Virus genome (UHGV): UHGV-0252651
Origin: a virus
Length of the DNA: 10,277 nucleotides
Direction: 5' to 3' (one strand)
This document shows positions 2,560-10,277 of this stretch, one piece after another. The translations under genes and the position numbers were made by a program. The first letter of the stretch is position 1. Each line of letters starts with the position of its first letter. Under the pieces are notes generated by a model. It searched no databases and was not told the origin of the DNA. It saw nothing but the letters and a program-made list of their open reading frames with translations.

Positions 2560-3369
2560 ATGCTTAAAGAACAACTGATTGCTGAAGCGCAAAAAATTGA
2601 TGCTTCCGTTGCTCTTGATAGTATTTTCGAATCAGTTAATATTTCTCCGGAAGCAAAAGAAACTTTCGGCACTGTATTCGAAGCTACCGTCAAGCAGCAC
2701 GCCGTTAAATTAGCTGAATCTCATATCGCTAAAATTGCTGAAAAAGCAGAAGAAGAAGTAGAAAAAAATAAAGAAGAAGCCGAAGAAAAAGCTGAGAAGA
2801 AAATCGCTGAGCAAGCTTCTAAATTCATCGACCATCTTGCGAAAGAATGGCTCGCTGAAAATAAATTAGCAGTTGATAAAGGCATCAAAGCCGAACTGTT
2901 TGAATCCATGCTTGGTGGATTAAAAGAGCTCTTTGTTGAACACAACGTTGTTGTTCCAGAAGAATCAGTTGATGTTGTAGCTGAAATGGAAGAAGAGCTG
3001 CAAGAACATAAAGAAGAATCAGCTCGTCTGTTCGAAGAACTCAATAAGCGTGACGCATATATCAATTATGTGCAGCGTGAAGTGGCATTGAGCGAAAGTA
3101 CTAAAGATCTGACTGAGTCTCAAAAAGAAAAAGTCTCTGCTCTGGTCGAAGGTATGGATTATTCAGATGCATTCTCAAGTAAATTGAGTGCCATCGTAGA
3201 AATGGTGAAGAAGTCTAATAAAGATGAAAGCACTATTACTGAGGGTATAAATACTCCTGATACTGAAGCAGCCGGACTGAATTTCGTCACTGAAGCTGTA
3301 GAAGATAAAGCTGCACCTGGTGCAGAAGATATTGTAAGTGTATATGCGAAAGTCGCATCTCGTTTCTAA
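2560..3369 (+). CDS. 22: Prohead scaffolding core protein gp22 (269 aa), acidic Glu/Lys-rich
   Basis: 269-aa ORF with an EEEVEKNKEEAEEKAEKK charged segment, located between 21 and 23 as in T4. AGGA RBS upstream; a TATAAATA motif sits 28 bp upstream of the ATG. Confidence 0.9.
   Translation: MLKEQLIAEAQKIDASVALDSIFESVNISPEAKETFGTVFEATVKQHAVKLAESHIAKIAEKAEEEVEKNKEEAEEKAEKKIAEQASKFIDHLAKEWLAENKLAVDKGIKAELFESMLGGLKELFVEHNVVVPEESVDVVAEMEEELQEHKEESARLFEELNKRDAYINYVQREVALSESTKDLTESQKEKVSALVEGMDYSDAFSSKLSAIVEMVKKSNKDESTITEGINTPDTEAAGLNFVTEAVEDKAAPGAEDIVSVYAKVASRF
3246..3253 (+). promoter_or_regulatory. Candidate late promoter TATAAATA inside the 3' end of gene 22, upstream of gene 23
   Basis: Exact TATAAATA (context GGGTATAAATACTCC) about 135 bp upstream of the gene 23 ATG. 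No motif is closer to 23. Confidence 0.5.
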
Positions 3370-3387
3370 TTTTAAAGGTTAACACAA

Positions 3388-4953
3388 ATGACTATCAAAA
3401 CTAAAGCTGAACTTTTGAACAAATGGAAGCCATTACTGGAAGGTGAAGGTTTACCGGAAATTGCTAATAGCAAACAAGCGATTATCGCTAAAATCTTTGA
3501 AAACCAGGAAAAAGATTTCCAGACAGCTCCAGAGTACAAAGACGAAAAAATCGCTCAGGCGTTCGGTTCTTTCTTAACAGAAGCTGAAATCGGTGGTGAC
3601 CACGGTTACAACGCTACTAACATTGCTGCTGGTCAGACTTCTGGCGCAGTAACTCAGATTGGCCCAGCTGTTATGGGTATGGTACGTCGTGCTATTCCTA
3701 ACCTGATTGCTTTCGATATTTGTGGTGTTCAGCCGATGAACAGCCCGACTGGTCAGGTATTCGCACTGCGCGCAGTATATGGTAAAGACCCAATCGCTGC
3801 TGATGCTAAAGAAGCATTCCACCCAATGTATGGTCCAGATGCAATGTTCTCTGGTCAGGGTGCTGCTAAGAAATTCCCAGCTCTGGCTGCTAGCACACAA
3901 ACCAAAGTAGGTGATATCTATACTCACTTCTTCCAGGAAACTGGTACTGTATATCTGCAAGCTTCTGCTCAAGTAACAATTAGTTCTACTGCAGATGATG
4001 CAGCTAAATTAGATGCTGAAATTAAGAAACAAATGGAAGCTGGCGCATTGGTAGAAATCGCTGAAGGTATGGCTACTTCTATCGCTGAACTTCAGGAAGG
4101 TTTCAACGGTTCTACCGATAACCCATGGAATGAAATGGGCTTCCGTATCGATAAACAAGTTATCGAAGCTAAATCTCGTCAGCTGAAAGCTGCTTACTCT
4201 ATCGAATTAGCACAAGACCTCCGCGCTGTTCACGGTATGGATGCTGATGCTGAACTGTCTGGTATTCTGGCTACCGAAATCATGTTGGAAATCAACCGTG
4301 AAGTTGTTGATTGGATTAACTACTCAGCTCAGGTTGGTAAATCTGGTATGACCCTGACTCCGGGTTCTAAAGCTGGTGTATTTGACTTCCAGGATCCGAT
4401 TGATATTCGTGGTGCTCGCTGGGCGGGTGAATCCTTTAAAGCTCTGTTGTTCCAGATTGACAAAGAAGCAGTTGAAATTGCTCGTCAGACCGGTCGTGGT
4501 GAAGGTAACTTCATTATCGCTTCCCGTAACGTAGTTAACGTTCTGGCTTCAGTTGATACTGGCATTTCTTATGCTGCACAGGGTCTGGCTACCGGCTTTA
4601 ACACTGATACTACCAAGTCAGTATTTGCTGGTGTTCTGGGTGGTAAATACCGTGTATATATCGACCAGTATGCTAAACAGGATTATTTCACTGTAGGTTA
4701 TAAAGGTCCGAACGAAATGGATGCTGGTATTTACTACGCTCCATATGTAGCTCTGACTCCGCTGCGTGGTTCCGATCCGAAGAACTTCCAACCGGTAATG
4801 GGATTCAAAACTCGTTACGGTATCGGTATCAACCCATTTGCAGAATCCGCTGCTCAGGCTCCGGCTTCTCGCATCCAGAGCGGTATGCCTTCTATTCTGA
4901 ATAGCCTTGGTAAAAACGCTTACTTCCGCCGTGTATATGTTAAAGGTATCTAA
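3388..4953 (+). CDS. 23: Major capsid protein gp23 precursor (521 aa)
   Basis: 521-aa ORF whose translation (MTIKTKAELLNKWKPLLEGEGLPEIANSKQAII...RRVYVKGI) matches my recollection of T4 gp23. Codon usage is noticeably more E. coli-like than neighbouring genes; followed by a strong hairpin terminator. Confidence 0.97.
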   Translation: MTIKTKAELLNKWKPLLEGEGLPEIANSKQAIIAKIFENQEKDFQTAPEYKDEKIAQAFGSFLTEAEIGGDHGYNATNIAAGQTSGAVTQIGPAVMGMVRRAIPNLIAFDICGVQPMNSPTGQVFALRAVYGKDPIAADAKEAFHPMYGPDAMFSGQGAAKKFPALAASTQTKVGDIYTHFFQETGTVYLQASAQVTISSTADDAAKLDAEIKKQMEAGALVEIAEGMATSIAELQEGFNGSTDNPWNEMGFRIDKQVIEAKSRQLKAAYSIELAQDLRAVHGMDADAELSGILATEIMLEINREVVDWINYSAQVGKSGMTLTPGSKAGVFDFQDPIDIRGARWAGESFKALLFQIDKEAVEIARQTGRGEGNFIIASRNVVNVLASVDTGISYAAQGLATGFNTDTTKSVFAGVLGGKYRVYIDQYAKQDYFTVGYKGPNEMDAGIYYAPYVALTPLRGSDPKNFQPVMGFKTRYGIGINPFAESAAQAPASRIQSGMPSILNSLGKNAYFRRVYVKGI

Positions 4954-6323: not shown

Positions 6324-6350
6324 AAAGGGACCGAAAGGTCCCTTTTTATT
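6324..6350. terminator. Bidirectional intrinsic terminator between convergent genes 24 (+) and rnlB (-): stem with GAAA tetraloop
   Basis: AGGGACC-GAAA-GGTCCCT at 6326-6343 followed by TTTTT on the + strand and flanked by an A-run upstream (a T-run on the - strand). It lies in the 29-bp gap between the two stop codons. Confidence 0.85.
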
Positions 6351-7354
6351 TAACTTACCAATTCAATCCAAGCCGGACGAAGTACATCTTGTACCATTTT
6401 AACTAATTCCTTCTTAATCAAAGAAGGATTATCCGCTTGAGTTAGAGTAATACCTTCACGAGAAGTTTCTTCCAAAATATCTTGAACCGTTAGTCCCATC
6501 ACCTTTCCAAAATCTTTTGGACCGATTTCGCCAATTTTAGAAATAACGTTATTTACTCGGTTCAGTGTAACGTAACAAGCTAAAATTCCAACCAATTTGT
6601 TATCAGCTTCTGACAGTTCAACTTTAGCTTTAATAGGCTTATCAGACTTTTTCTTTTCACTAAATTTAGAGTTCTTGCATTTGATAGCTACGCGATTGCC
6701 ATTAGGCATCCAAGAAGGATAACAAGGTTTCAATACATATCCTTCAGCGGTAAATACTTCGCCTTTTACTTCAGCATTCCAAACGCATTTATTCGCATCA
6801 ACTAATCCAGCATGGTCTACTGTAAAATTATAATCTTGGACGACAGAATCTAAATCATTTGGCAATTTAATAAGCTCTTCAAATTTACCGCGACCTAAAA
6901 GTGGAGCCATTTTAAATTTAAATGTATTACAGAATGATTCCATCATATAATCATCGACATAAGTCACATCACCACTTTCTGTAGTAACAATAATGTCAAA
7001 TACATAAAAATCTTTATCGCCATAATCGACATTCTTCTGAATGCCAGGTCCGGCAAATTCACCGAAGACTTGATAAGATACAACCGCTGAAGTTTCCATA
7101 ATATCTTGTACTGCTTTAATGGAATCAGCGTAATTCTTCAAAATAATTTCATACCCAAAGAAATCTTCAGCAGGAAGAATAGGACCAGTTCGTTTAGCAC
7201 AAGTTACTTTATCACGCTCAATAATCAATGAGAAATTTGTGCCATGAATCTTTTCACGAGCTACCCATTCGCCACCAGTCAATCCTAAACTATAAAGTTT
7301 TTCAATGAATTTAGAATTGTAATGATTTTCAAGACTGCTATACTTTTTAAACAT
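6350..7354 (-). CDS. rnlB: RNA ligase 2 (Rnl2, 334 aa), nucleotidyltransferase superfamily
   Basis: 334-aa ORF on the - strand with the adenylyltransferase motif I KIHGTN (lysine at residue 35). Translation matches recalled T4 Rnl2. GAGGA RBS upstream. Confidence 0.94.
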
Positions 7355-7363
7355 AATTAATCC

Positions 7364-7642
7364 TCAAAATGTAATTTCTAACCAATCACCATCACGCTGA
7401 TCACTATTGACTTTAAAGCTAAATCCTTCTTTTCTCAGCCAATCACCAATTTCTTCAGTAATCAATTTATCGCGAGCAGTACAATAATAACTAAAATATG
7501 TTTTACCTTGTTCAGCTGCTTTATTAGCAAGTTCCGAAAAATCTTTAATAAAACACTCTAACTTAAACTGTTTACTTTTAAGTGCTTTTTCACGTAATTG
7601 ATTAGCAAAAGATTCATTTTCATAAAGATCATACTGTTCCAT
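7364..7642 (-). CDS. 24.2: Hypothetical protein 24.2 (92 aa)
   Basis: Small ORF packed between 24.3 and rnlB on the same strand, with AAGGTG RBS and only a few bp to its neighbours. No recognisable motif. Name assigned from T4 synteny. Confidence 0.7.
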   Translation of the reverse strand: MEQYDLYENESFANQLREKALKSKQFKLECFIKDFSELANKAAEQGKTYFSYYCTARDKLITEEIGDWLRKEGFSFKVNSDQRDGDWLEITF

Positions 7643-7645
7643 TTT

Positions 7646-7843
7646 TCACCTTTTATTAATATGTCTTTTTCTATAGACAACTTTTTCTCGAGTTTCAAAT
7701 TTATTCTTAGCAGTCATAGCTCGAGCCCATAATACAGCCACTTCTTTCGCCTGTAAGTTTAATTCACGAGCAATTTCAATGAATGACTTTCCAGACTCAT
7801 GAAGAGTAAACACCACAACCTCAGTTCGCATAATCAATCTCAT
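7646..7843 (-). CDS. 24.3: Hypothetical protein 24.3 (65 aa), predicted helix-turn-helix DNA-binding protein
   Basis: Small ORF first in the 24.3-24.2-rnlB unit. The segment HESGKSFIEIARELNLQAKEVAVLW has the pattern of an HTH (compare the N-terminal HTH of IS3-family OrfA proteins). Name from synteny. Confidence 0.65.
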   Translation of the reverse strand: MRLIMRTEVVVFTLHESGKSFIEIARELNLQAKEVAVLWARAMTAKNKFETREKVVYRKRHINKR

Positions 7844-7900
7844 GTTATCGAGTTGATGCCATTATATACATCATTTTCTGAGTGTGTTTTGTGTGCTTTC

Positions 7901-7927
7901 AAAATGAAGAAAGGGGCCAAAGCCCCT
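7901..7927 (-). terminator. Hairpin downstream of hoc on the - strand, separating hoc from the 24.3-24.2-rnlB unit
   Basis: AGGGGC-CAAA-GCCCCT at 7912-7927, a perfect 6-bp GC-rich stem. On the - strand it is followed by TTCTTCATTTT. Confidence 0.65.
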
Positions 7928-7932
7928 TATGA

Positions 7933-9072: not shown

Positions 9073-9753
9073 TTATTTTAATGTTACGAAAGAAGAATTG
9101 CGTGTTTCACGAATTAGAACTGATCCGTCACGATTAATGTAATAAATTAAGCTAAACAAAGTTTGGTGTGCCGACGCGTGTTCAAAACTGGTTGGGCGAG
9201 ATTTCCAATCTGGAGTTTCAGCAATCCATTGATAAATCCACCAAGGAACAGTACAGAATCCTGGATTTTTTCCAATCAGCTGAAGATTCGGACTAAAGTT
9301 TTCCGGAAGAGTAAATACAGACGGCTTTTCAGATTCAATAATCTCAGTTACAGCCTGCTCGAATTTTTCTTCAACAAAAGGAGTATCTTCAATCAAAACA
9401 TCAGTATTTTCAGGAATTTTATCCATTTCTACTACTTCAATTTTAATGTCAGATTTAACCGGAGAATCAATCAGAAGTGCTGCCTCTGGATTGACTTCTT
9501 CATCGTCATATTTTAATCCATCTGCGGCATCAGCAGCATCGATTAAGTCTTTAATAGATAACCCATCAGTCTCTGGCATAGGTTCACTAGCGAGCTTCTG
9601 GAGGGCTTCTTCAATATCAACAACGATATTATCAAAAGATTTATTCTTTTTGACCTTTATACCAAACTGTTCAGCATATTCAGCTAATTTAGCTTTAGCT
9701 TCTTTATTATCATCAAGAGCCTTCAGCTCTGCAATATAATCTTTATCTATCAT
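9073..9753 (-). CDS. inh: Inh, inhibitor of the prohead protease gp21 (226 aa)
   Basis: 226-aa ORF immediately upstream of hoc on the same strand, with GAGGA RBS. Size and position match T4 inh (earlier called hoc.1). Confidence 0.82.
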   Translation of the reverse strand: MIDKDYIAELKALDDNKEAKAKLAEYAEQFGIKVKKNKSFDNIVVDIEEALQKLASEPMPETDGLSIKDLIDAADAADGLKYDDEEVNPEAALLIDSPVKSDIKIEVVEMDKIPENTDVLIEDTPFVEEKFEQAVTEIIESEKPSVFTLPENFSPNLQLIGKNPGFCTVPWWIYQWIAETPDWKSRPTSFEHASAHQTLFSLIYYINRDGSVLIRETRNSSFVTLK

Positions 9754-9766
9754 AATATTTCCTCAG

Positions 9767-9774
9767 TATAAATA
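9767..9774 (+). promoter_or_regulatory. T4-type late promoter TATAAATA for uvsW, in the divergent inh/uvsW intergenic region
   Basis: Exact TATAAATA 29 bp upstream of the uvsW ATG. Confidence 0.55.
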
Positions 9775-9803
9775 TAGATATATTTATTACATGGTATTTA
9801 GAC

Positions 9804-10262
9804 ATGACTGACATTAAAGTACATTTTTATGATTTTAGTCACGTGAGAATTGATTGTGAAGAAAGTACATTTCATGAACTCCGTGATTTCTTTAGCTTTG
9901 AAGCCGATGGGTATCGTTTTAATCCAAAGTACAAATATGGTCACTGGGATGGACGAATCCGTCTTTTAGATTATAATCGTCTTCTTCCATTCGGCTTAGT
10001 CGGGCAAATTAAAAAGTTCTGCGATAACTTTGGCTATAAAGCCTGGATTGACCCACAGATTAACGAAAAAGAAGAATTATCAAGAAAAGATTTTGATGAA
10101 TGGCTTTCTAAATTAGAAATCTATTCAGGAAATAAAAGAATTGAACCACACTGGTATCAAAAAGATGCAGTGTTCGAAGGATTAGTTAATCGTCGTAGAA
10201 TTCTTAATCTTCCAACATCCGCAGGTACAGTCGAAGACCACGGCACGAAAGAAATGCTTTAA
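9804..10262 (+). CDS. uvsW: UvsW SF2 helicase, N-terminal 141 residues followed by 11 unrelated codons and a stop; interrupted or truncated inside helicase motif I
   Basis: Translation MTDIKVHFYDFSHVRIDCEESTFHELRDFFSFEADGYRFNP...RRRILNLPTSAG matches the recalled T4 UvsW N-terminus up to the glycine loop of motif I. The expected Lys-Ser/Thr is replaced by TVEDHGTKEML and a stop at 10260-10262. Confidence 0.8.
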   Translation: MTDIKVHFYDFSHVRIDCEESTFHELRDFFSFEADGYRFNPKYKYGHWDGRIRLLDYNRLLPFGLVGQIKKFCDNFGYKAWIDPQINEKEELSRKDFDEWLSKLEIYSGNKRIEPHWYQKDAVFEGLVNRRRILNLPTSAGTVEDHGTKEML

Positions 10263-10277
10263 CTTTTTCATGTTTTT

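What the first reader, a model, noticed from the sequence alone, without database searches (positions are those of the whole stretch)
6350..7843. rnlB-24.2-24.3 forms its own minus-strand unit bracketed by two hairpin terminators
The Rnl2-type RNA ligase (KxHGxN motif) is co-transcribed with two tiny proteins of unknown function (24.3 and 24.2, only 2-9 bp apart), isolated from hoc by a hairpin and ending in the bidirectional terminator shared with gene 24. Rnl2 has no established physiological role in T4 and is not adjacent to a polynucleotide kinase here. The tight coupling suggests 24.2 and 24.3 are functional partners or regulators of an RNA-repair or counter-defence activity. No strong sigma70 -35 or MotA box is visible upstream of 24.3; only a TATATAAT -10-like element (- strand of 7861-7868).
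Basis: inference. Interest (0 to 1): 0.45.

Follow-up and report, generated by a model that had tools for sequence, protein, structure and literature searches.

The report
T4 rnlB–24.2–24.3 middle-gene cluster
This is the well-known RNA ligase 2 gene cluster of a T4-like phage, whose promoters were already mapped in T4; it is not one simple operon, because the ligase gene has a second promoter of its own, and the roles of the two small neighbouring proteins are still unknown.

Summary
On the minus strand lie rnlB (6350-7354, Rnl2), 24.2 (7364-7642) and 24.3 (7646-7843, more likely starting at 7831), with 9-nt and 3-nt gaps. A hairpin follows hoc (7928-7911), a bidirectional hairpin lies at 6324-6345, and TATATAAT sits at 7868-7861.

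The window is a Tequatrovirus, and the architecture is already known from T4. Hinton's 2010 table lists three mapped MotA/AsiA-dependent middle promoters, which I placed on the window by offset:
- PrnlB: TSS at window 7477, inside 24.2.
- Phoc: TSS at window 9503, inside inh.

Published T4 RNA-seq shows all three genes drop about 100-fold in a motA amber infection. So this is a MotA-dependent middle unit with a nested second promoter, despite having no canonical MotA box.

The partner idea remains unproven:
- gp24.3 is a small LuxR/sigma-region-4-like HTH protein that also occurs without rnlB.
- gp24.2 sits immediately before rnlB in six Tevenvirinae genera, but Rnl2 occurs without it elsewhere.
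- All three genes are dispensable in two genome-wide T4 screens.

Verdict: already known, low interest.

The parts
6324..6345 (.). Bidirectional hairpin (9-bp stem, 4-nt loop) between the convergent genes 24 (+) and rnlB (-), with T-runs on both sides. It is the presumed 3' end of the rnlB unit and of gene 24 late transcripts.
   Evidence: Terminator scan finds it on both strands. Fold energy is -14.8 / -15.2 kcal/mol, z -4.6 / -4.0. Annotated as a terminator in related phage OE5505.
6350..7354 (-). rnlB, T4 RNA ligase 2 (Rnl2), 334 aa, with motif I KIHGTN.
   Evidence: ORF. Pfam RNA_ligase and T4_Rnl2_C. PHROG 548. PDB 2HVQ at E 2e-225.
7364..7642 (-). 24.2, 92 aa, function unknown. Predicted as a long N-terminal helix followed by a small alpha/beta domain. 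Its stop lies 9 nt before the rnlB ATG, and the rnlB Shine-Dalgarno GAGGA overlaps that stop.
7484..7489 (-). -10 element TATTAT of PrnlB, the internal middle promoter for rnlB. The inferred start site is G at 7477, 123 nt upstream of the rnlB ATG and inside the 24.2 coding sequence. There is no canonical MotA box upstream (AGGTAAA at the expected place).
   Evidence: T4 PrnlB start 109763 mapped with offset 102286, derived from the identical gene coordinates. Sequence is conserved between T4 and the window. MotA-box scan is negative.
7646..7831 (-). 24.3 (DUF2774), 61 aa from ATG 7831, or 65 aa if ATG 7843 is used. A three-helix HTH followed by a basic tail, KVVYRKRHINKR. Its stop lies 3 nt before the 24.2 ATG.
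   Evidence: Pfam DUF2774 at 1.7e-29, with sub-threshold GerE and Sigma70_r4_2 hits. AF2 model pLDDT 89. Foldseek matches to RcsB, EvgA, NarL, GerE and sigma domain 4, TMq 0.6-0.7. Family alignment.
The inferred start site is A at 7854.
   Evidence: T4 P24.3 start 110108 mapped with offset 102254. It lies 7 nt after the TATAAT in both T4 and the window.
7893..7901 (+). The only MotA-box-like sequence near P24.3, and it is inverted: GTGCTTTCA on the + strand, at about -47 to -39 of P24.3. In Mosigvirus the same position reads ATGCTTTA. Its significance is unknown.
   Evidence: Read directly from the sequence. No -10 element follows it on the + strand.
7911..7928 (-). Hairpin 4 nt after the hoc stop, followed by UUUCUUCAUUUU. 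It is the presumed terminator or stable 3' end for hoc transcripts, and P24.3 begins right after its U-tract.
   Evidence: Positionally conserved with different stems in Mosig-, Gapriver-, Teguna-, Jiaoda-, Moon- and Karamvirus. Annotated as a terminator in OE5505.
9510..9515 (-). -10 element TAAAAT of Phoc, a middle promoter inside inh. The inferred start site is A at 9503, with a partial MotA box TGCTGAT 13 nt upstream. It is the source of prereplicative transcription through hoc toward the unit.
   Evidence: T4 Phoc start 111757 mapped with offset 102254. Sequence. hoc and inh fall 35-fold in motA-am.

Best explanation
The region is the rnlB-24.2-24.3 cluster of a Tequatrovirus. It is a prereplicative (middle) transcription unit on the minus strand with two nested MotA/AsiA-dependent promoters.

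P24.3 has -10 TATAAT at 7866-7861 and its start at about 7854. It begins right after the hoc hairpin and gives a transcript of about 1.5 kb covering 24.3, 24.2 and rnlB. PrnlB has -10 TATTAT at 7489-7484 and its start at about 7477, inside 24.2. It gives a transcript of about 1.15 kb that encodes only Rnl2. Both run to the bidirectional hairpin at 6345-6324. A third middle promoter inside inh (Phoc, start about 9503) and late transcription feed weak transcription through hoc, and most of it ends at the hoc hairpin.

Both promoters pair an excellent -10 with a deviant or unrecognisable MotA box, a class already described for T4. On the long transcript, the 3-nt and 9-nt gaps, with Shine-Dalgarno sequences overlapping the upstream stop codons, make translational coupling likely.

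Rnl2 is the known nick-sealing RNA ligase. gp24.3 is most likely a small DNA-binding HTH protein with a role separate from Rnl2. gp24.2 is a T-even-restricted small alpha/beta protein whose only link to Rnl2 is conserved adjacency.

Shown: the gene content and hairpins in the window; the promoter positions and MotA dependence in T4, from the literature. Inferred: that the same promoters work in this phage (the -10 elements and spacing are identical), that termination occurs at the hairpins, and the protein functions.
For: - Identity: 99.4% to phage Killian; T4-type gene order 24 / rnlB / 24.2 / 24.3 / hoc / inh.
- Mapped T4 middle promoters PrnlB 109763, P24.3 110108 and Phoc 111757 (citing Stoskiene et al. 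2007). After mapping, each start lies exactly 7 nt downstream of a TAnnnT hexamer in the window.
- T4 RNA-seq at 5 min, wt versus motA-am: rnlB 43447 to 429 reads, 24.2 5072 to 60, 24.3 3484 to 36. This equals the dependence of the classic PuvsY operon, 11917 to 165.
- Read density: inh 1.5, hoc 1.6, 24.3 20.4, 24.2 18.2, rnlB 43.2 reads/nt.
- Time-resolved omics puts all three in the same class, and all three proteins are detected.
- Deviant MotA boxes with a stringent -10 are a recognised property of T4 middle promoters.
- In other genera the same positions carry canonical MotA-box promoters: TGCTT(T/A/C)A-N13-TATAAT upstream of rnlB or of 24.2-rnlB, and TGCTTTT/TGCTATT-N11-12-TAnnnT right after the hoc hairpin.
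- Protein assignments.
Against: - No transcript data exist for this particular phage.
- The primary paper that mapped the promoters (Stoskiene 2007) could not be read. I rely on the review's table.
- No recognisable MotA box lies upstream of either promoter in the window, so direct MotA action at these sites rests on the T4 experiments.
- The 2.3-fold rnlB excess over 24.2/24.3 could partly be a counting artefact. Those genes are short, they overlap in T4, and reads were 100-bp paired-end.
- The MotA dependence of a gene can be indirect. Late genes also fall in motA-am.
- 3' ends at T4 hairpins may mark stable RNA ends rather than true termination.
Confidence: 0.85

Rival explanations
1. One reading: one simple operon. 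A single promoter upstream of 24.3 co-transcribes 24.3-24.2-rnlB as one insulated unit between two terminators.
For: P24.3 exists at the proposed place. Density steps up 12-fold after the hoc hairpin. The gaps are 3 and 9 nt. All three genes share one temporal class.
Against: PrnlB is mapped inside 24.2, and rnlB has about 2.3 times the read density of 24.2/24.3. Every other genus examined has a canonical middle promoter directly upstream of rnlB or of 24.2-rnlB. Phoc transcription enters from upstream.
Confidence: 0.1
2. gp24.2, and possibly gp24.3, are physical or functional partners of Rnl2. For example, an RNA-binding specificity factor or regulator in an RNA-repair or counter-defence pathway.
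Against: rnlB occurs without 24.2 or 24.3 within 2.5 kb in Lazarus-, Ceceduo-, Slopek- and Pseudotevenvirus, and without 24.2 in Tegunavirus. 24.3 occurs without rnlB in Krischvirus. Mosig- and Gaprivervirus separate 24.2 from rnlB by a promoter and a 120-130-nt spacer. The T4 internal promoter expresses rnlB alone. Rnl2 is solved and studied as a single polypeptide (PDB 2HVQ; established knowledge, Ho and Shuman 2002). gp24.3 resembles DNA-binding HTH domains. No PADLOC match. No phenotype under RexAB, RnlAB, CBASS, DarTG1/2 or minimal medium is reported for these genes.
Confidence: 0.15
3. There is no separate unit. 24.3-rnlB are expressed mainly by read-through from promoters upstream of hoc (Phoc or late promoters), and the hoc hairpin only shapes RNA stability.
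For: hoc and inh RNA are also MotA-dependent at 5 min. The U-tract of the hoc hairpin is interrupted, and the hairpin scores only z -1.9. T4 3' ends are said to reflect stable ends rather than termination.
Against: Density is 12-fold higher downstream of the hairpin than upstream, which read-through cannot produce. P24.3 is a mapped start site. Promoter motifs sit right after the hairpin in six other genera.
Confidence: 0.03

Closest known systems
Bacteriophage T4 genes rnlB (24.1), 24.2 and 24.3 with middle promoters P24.3 and PrnlB (NC_000866 108636-110108)
   Same: Same gene order and strand, and the same flanking genes 24 and hoc. The -10 hexamers and their spacing to the start sites are identical. 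Rnl2 matches the solved T4 Rnl2 sequence at E 2e-225; gp24.2 is 96.7% identical to T4's. The same hairpins are present, with the loop reading UUUG here and UUCG in T4.
   Different: Lab T4 lacks 33 bp (11 aa) of 24.3 between two CTCGAG repeats. It also has an A5 rather than A4 run, which shifts the 24.3 C-terminus so that it overlaps 24.2 by 14 nt. Here 24.3 ends 3 nt before 24.2, as in OE5505 and most relatives. T4 also has segE between inh and uvsW, which is absent here.
T4 PuvsY / uvsY-uvsY.-1-uvsY.-2 middle operon
   Same: A short minus-strand prereplicative unit embedded among late genes. It is driven only by MotA-dependent promoters, so its RNA collapses about 80-100-fold in motA-am.
   Different: PuvsY has a consensus MotA box and doubles as a replication origin primer promoter. 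P24.3 and PrnlB have no recognisable box.
T4 RNA repair pair Rnl1 (rnlA) + polynucleotide kinase/phosphatase (pseT), which counters the PrrC anticodon nuclease
   Same: A phage-encoded ATP-dependent RNA ligase expressed before replication.
   Different: Rnl2 belongs to a different ligase family that seals nicks in duplex RNA. It is not next to a kinase. No host nuclease it counters is known. rnlB tolerates insertions at 84 of 84 sites, whereas rnlA scores as essential in the same screen.
LuxR/FixJ/GerE-type and sigma-70 region 4 helix-turn-helix domains (comparison for gp24.3)
   Same: Three-helix HTH that superposes at 1.1-1.4 Å over 40-46 residues on RcsB, EvgA, NarL, GerE and SigW domain 4. 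Weak Pfam hits to GerE and Sigma70_r4_2.
   Different: The Pfam scores are below the family cut-offs. The protein is only 61 aa, has no receiver or other domain, and carries a conserved basic tail (EKVVYRKR) not found in those families.

Membership tests
Rnl2-type ATP-dependent RNA ligase (T4 Rnl2 family) | Nucleotidyltransferase motif I KxHGxN with the catalytic lysine | tested here: met
   KIHGTN in ...[11 protein letters not shown]... of the 334-aa ORF.
Rnl2-type ATP-dependent RNA ligase (T4 Rnl2 family) | Adenylyltransferase domain plus the Rnl2-specific C-terminal domain | tested here: met
   Pfam RNA_ligase 81.9 bits and T4_Rnl2_C 84.6 bits, both above the 27-bit cut-offs. Full-length match to PDB 2HVQ at E 2e-225.
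Rnl2-type ATP-dependent RNA ligase (T4 Rnl2 family) | Nick-sealing ligase activity on duplex RNA | not testable with these tools
   Inferred from near-identity to the biochemically characterised T4 enzyme.
T4 middle (MotA/AsiA, sigma-appropriation) promoter | Excellent sigma-70 -10 element TAnnnT, with the start about 7 nt downstream | tested here: met
   TATAAT 7866-7861 (start 7854), TATTAT 7489-7484 (start 7477) and TAAAAT 9515-9510 (start 9503), after mapping the T4 starts.
T4 middle (MotA/AsiA, sigma-appropriation) promoter | MotA box (a/t)(a/t)(a/t)TGCTTtA placed 12 +/- 1 bp upstream of the -10 | tested here: not met
   No box with at most 1 mismatch at 10-14 bp spacing upstream of P24.3 or PrnlB. 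Phoc has a partial box, TGCTGAT, at 13 bp. Deviant or absent boxes are documented for active T4 middle promoters, so this does not exclude the class. Orthologous promoters in six other genera do have the box.
T4 middle (MotA/AsiA, sigma-appropriation) promoter | Activity in vivo depends on MotA (and AsiA) | not testable with these tools
   For the T4 orthologues, RNA falls about 100-fold in motA-am and the promoters are listed as mapped middle promoters. There are no data for this phage.
Intrinsic (rho-independent) terminator | G+C-rich hairpin immediately followed by a U-tract | tested here: met
   6345-6324: 9-bp stem, then UUUGUUUUAUU on the minus strand and UUUUUAUUU on the plus strand. 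7928-7911: 7-bp stem, then an interrupted UUUCUUCAUUUU.
Intrinsic (rho-independent) terminator | Transcripts actually end there | not testable with these tools
   Indirect evidence only: in T4, low hoc density upstream versus high density downstream is explained by the promoter, not by termination. The authors caution that T4 3' ends may be stability ends.
DUF2774 (PF11242) - gp24.3 | Match to the family profile above the gathering score | tested here: met
   102.2 bits against a cut-off of 29.2, E 1.7e-29. 136 relatives all carry PF11242.
LuxR/GerE or sigma-70 region 4 HTH - gp24.3 | Profile match above the gathering score | tested here: not met
   GerE 18.5 bits (cut-off 23.5) and Sigma70_r4_2 13.4 bits (cut-off 25.7). 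The resemblance is at fold level only: Foldseek prob about 1, TMq 0.6-0.7, E 0.17-1.
Polycistronic operon with translational coupling | Same strand, short gaps, downstream Shine-Dalgarno overlapping the upstream stop, and no internal promoter or terminator | tested here: not met
   The gaps of 3 and 9 nt, with AAGGTGA and TGAGGA overlapping the stops, are met. However, an internal promoter, PrnlB, lies inside 24.2.

The most novel reading that the evidence does not exclude
gp24.2 could be a dedicated RNA-binding adaptor that directs or regulates Rnl2 on a specific nicked RNA, for example during repair of host-inflicted tRNA or rRNA damage. gp24.3 would then be an independent sigma-region-4/LuxR-like mini transcription factor placed at the head of the unit. 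If so, the cluster would give the first physiological handle on Rnl2.
Probability: 0.12. Interest if true: 0.6.

Novelty: already known. Interest (0 to 1): 0.15.

Why it matters
As found, it matters little. The genes, the enzyme and the three promoters were described in T4 years ago, and this window is a close T4 relative.

The real open question is what Rnl2 does in infection, and whether gp24.2 or gp24.3 has anything to do with it. This analysis narrows that question in four ways:
- 24.3 is probably a DNA-binding protein unlinked to Rnl2.
- 24.2 is the only plausible partner, because it is adjacent to rnlB in six genera.
- All three genes are dispensable on laboratory E. coli.
- They were not hits under the five defence systems tested so far, none of which cleaves tRNA.

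Tried and rejected
- Canonical MotA-box scan of the whole window (TGCTT(T/C)A, at most 1 mismatch, 10-14 nt spacer, TAnnnT). Nothing upstream of 24.3 or rnlB.
- A perfect TGCTTTA in the hoc 3' end (about 7977-7971) looked like a candidate. I rejected it because the nearest TAnnnT is only 8 nt away, the sequence is simply the Thr-Ala-Leu codons of hoc, it is not conserved in Jiaodavirus, and the mapped T4 start is elsewhere.
- Sigma-70 scan hits TTGAAA-18-GAAAAT (7902-7873) and CTTACA-17-TATTAT (7757-7729). There are fewer such hits in the window than in shuffles (21 versus 31.6), and neither corresponds to a mapped start.
- Rfam on the window and six related loci: no family.
- PADLOC: no match for any of the three proteins.
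- Literature searches for a physiological role of Rnl2 or for any study of gp24.2/gp24.3 found nothing specific.
- The T4 dRNA-seq start-site table (bioRxiv 2024.04.04.588121) is not among the held supplements. Stoskiene 2007 is not held. Miller 2003 is not held.
- The afdb50 fold library was unavailable. BFVD returned only uncharacterised phage proteins for gp24.2.
- The 80-110-nt leaders upstream of rnlB or 24.2 in other genera showed no obvious common minimum-energy fold, and I did not pursue them.
Full report
What the window is. The 2.3 kb around the finding is 99.4% identical to Escherichia phage Killian. It is 95-99% identical to several hundred other Tequatrovirus genomes. The gene order is that of T4: 22, 23 and 24 on the plus strand; rnlB, 24.2, 24.3, hoc and inh on the minus strand; then uvsW on the plus strand.

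Checking the observation. The gaps are 9 nt (24.2 to rnlB) and 3 nt (24.3 to 24.2), and the downstream Shine-Dalgarno sequences (TGAGGA, AAGGTGA) overlap the upstream stop codons.

The ligase carries KIHGTN. It matches Pfam RNA_ligase and T4_Rnl2_C and aligns end to end with solved T4 Rnl2, PDB 2HVQ, at E 2e-225.

The hairpin after hoc lies at 7928-7911 and folds at -12.6 kcal/mol, followed by UUUCUUCAUUUU. The bidirectional hairpin between rnlB and gene 24 lies at 6324-6345 and folds at -14.8 / -15.2 kcal/mol with T-runs on both strands. A hairpin at the same position, with a different stem sequence, follows hoc or inh in Mosig-, Gapriver-, Teguna-, Jiaoda-, Moon- and Karamvirus. It is therefore a conserved element and not a chance match.

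TATATAAT is at 7868-7861.

What is already known about transcription here. Table 1 of Hinton's 2010 review lists experimentally identified T4 middle promoters. Three fall in this region: PrnlB (start 109763), P24.3 (start 110108) and Phoc (start 111757). All three are credited to Stoskiene et al., Mol Microbiol 2007.

I mapped these onto the window using the coordinate offsets of the orthologous genes, 102286 for rnlB/24.2 and 102254 for the intergenic region, hoc and inh:
- P24.3 starts at window 7854.
- PrnlB starts at window 7477. That is 7 nt after TATTAT 7489-7484, inside the 24.2 coding sequence and 123 nt upstream of the rnlB ATG.
- Phoc starts at window 9503. That is 7 nt after TAAAAT 9515-9510, inside inh, with a partial MotA box (TGCTGAT) 13 nt upstream.
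All three starts land at the canonical distance from a TAnnnT hexamer, which supports the mapping.

MotA dependence. Patterson-West et al. 2018 sequenced RNA 5 min after infection with T4 wild type or a motA amber mutant, using stranded libraries and 100-bp paired reads. Their Table S1 gives these mean reads, wild type then motA-am:
- rnlB 43447 then 429
- 24.2 5072 then 60
- 24.3 3484 then 36
- hoc 1820 then 56
- inh 1028 then 29
- uvsY, the classic middle operon, for comparison: 11917 then 165
The unit is therefore among the most MotA-dependent in the genome, even though it shows no consensus MotA box. The review states that MotA tolerates strong deviations from the box, while middle promoters need an excellent -10. 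Both promoters here fit that description.

Read density is 1.5-1.6 reads/nt over inh and hoc, 20 and 18 over 24.3 and 24.2, and 43 over rnlB. The 12-fold step after the hoc hairpin fits P24.3, and the further doubling fits PrnlB. Part of that doubling could be an artefact of counting short, overlapping genes. Time-resolved omics in T4 places all three genes in one class (RNA early, protein middle), so all three proteins are made.

Comparative support. I took loci from other genera through the 24.3 and Rnl2 proteins. I then scored every ORF with profiles of the 24.2 and 24.3 families.

Upstream of rnlB (Mosig-, Gapriver-, Tegunavirus) or of 24.2-rnlB (Jiaoda-, Moon-, Karamvirus) there is a textbook middle promoter. 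It reads TGCTT(T/A/C)A, 13 nt, TATAAT, usually with TGG just before the -10, and is followed by an 80-110-nt leader.

Upstream of 24.3, three genera (Moon-, Jiaoda-, Karamvirus) have a MotA-like box fused to the T-run of the hoc hairpin. Teguna- and Gaprivervirus instead have an early-type GTTTACA-17-TGnTAnnnT promoter. Mosigvirus shares the deviant T4 arrangement.

The constant feature is thus a separate promoter serving rnlB. Whether 24.2 lies behind that promoter varies from genus to genus.

The two small proteins. gp24.3 is DUF2774. Its AlphaFold model (pLDDT 89) is a three-helix bundle that superposes on the DNA-binding HTH of RcsB, EvgA, NarL and GerE and on sigma domain 4. Sub-threshold Pfam hits to GerE and Sigma70_r4_2 agree with this. 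A conserved basic tail, EKVVYRKR, follows the HTH. The protein is present in Krischvirus, which has no rnlB at this locus.

24.2 lies directly before rnlB in six Tevenvirinae genera. It is absent from Tegunavirus. Rnl2 in Lazarus-, Ceceduo-, Slopek- and Pseudotevenvirus has neither small gene nearby.

By tblastn, Rnl2 is found in 1376 phage records, 24.3 in 1081 and 24.2 in 695. The small-protein counts are lower bounds.

Phenotypes. In the HIDEN-SEQ transposon screen of T4, every insertion site was hit and each gene was called non-essential: rnlB 84 of 84 sites, 24.2 23 of 23, and 24.3 14 of 14. The orthologues in Bas37 behaved the same way. The conditional screens reported (RexAB, RnlAB, CBASS, DarTG1, DarTG2, minimal medium) name other genes as hits. 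CRISPRi-ART knock-down also scores rnlB, 24.2 and 24.3 as having no fitness effect. None of the tested defences cuts tRNA or other RNA in a way Rnl2 might repair. The counter-defence idea is therefore untested rather than refuted.

Verdict.

The interpretation needs three corrections:
- The unit is MotA-dependent.
- It contains a second, internal promoter, so rnlB is also expressed on its own.
- It receives some transcription from a middle promoter upstream of hoc.

The proposal that 24.2 and 24.3 are partners of Rnl2 is not supported for 24.3 and only weakly suggested for 24.2. Everything structural here was already described for T4, so the finding is already known and of low interest. The physiological role of Rnl2 remains an open question that this locus alone does not make newly testable.

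Noticed in passing
window 10228-10277: Homology of the uvsW ORF to T4 and Killian uvsW stops abruptly after ...CCAACATCCGCAGGTA, inside the Walker A codons (PTSAG|KS). The ORF then reads TVEDHGTKEML and stops at 10260-10262. None of 495 matching phage records continues past this point. The last 52 nt have no blastn hit in 50,697 phage records, and a 30-mer has no exact match in IMG/VR. This could be an insertion (intron or homing-endonuclease type) at the P-loop site or an assembly/window-end artefact. Fifty bases are too few to tell.
   Followed up: partly
window 7646-7843; L002 2416-2586: 24.3 is polymorphic and inconsistently annotated. Lab T4 lacks 33 bp (11 aa) between two CTCGAG repeats. 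It also has an A5 rather than A4 run that shifts the C-terminus to overlap 24.2 by 14 nt. The window and most relatives have the longer form, ending 3 nt before 24.2. Records start the gene at either of two in-frame ATGs (7843 or 7831); the mapped start site favours 7831.
   Followed up: yes
L004 ~3455-3568, L005 ~3478-3594, L006 ~3237-3373, L007 ~3538-3643, L009 ~3596-3702, L014 ~2138-2270: In six other genera a canonical MotA-box promoter upstream of rnlB or 24.2 is followed by an 80-110-nt untranslated leader. The leader has a recurring GATAGA-like motif and a TTATTTAT stretch near the start codon. There is no Rfam match and no obvious shared fold. Tequatrovirus has lost this leader, and its PrnlB lies inside 24.2.
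   Followed up: partly
window 7893-7901 (+ strand): An inverted MotA-box-like sequence, GTGCTTTCA (a perfect ATGCTTTA in Mosigvirus), is conserved at about -47 to -39 of P24.3. This promoter otherwise has no recognisable MotA box, and no -10 follows the sequence on the + strand.
   Followed up: no
window 9754-9803 versus L002 4509-5177: T4 carries the homing endonuclease gene segE between inh and uvsW. In this window uvsW starts 50 nt after inh and segE is absent. hoc length also varies among close relatives: 1131 nt here and in T4, 1419 nt in Killian.
   Followed up: no
window 1576, 2525, 3246, 5002, 9767 (+ strand): There are five exact T4 late-promoter boxes, TATAAATA, all on the + strand, against 0.95 expected by chance. 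Those at 2525, 5002 and 9767 lie just upstream of genes 22, 24 and uvsW. None lies on the minus strand upstream of hoc or inh.
   Followed up: no
L006 3374-4361 (Yersinia phage TG1): rnlB is annotated as two overlapping ORFs (3374-3673 and 3666-4361). This indicates a frameshift, so it is either a pseudogene or a sequencing error. The phage also lacks 24.2.
   Followed up: no
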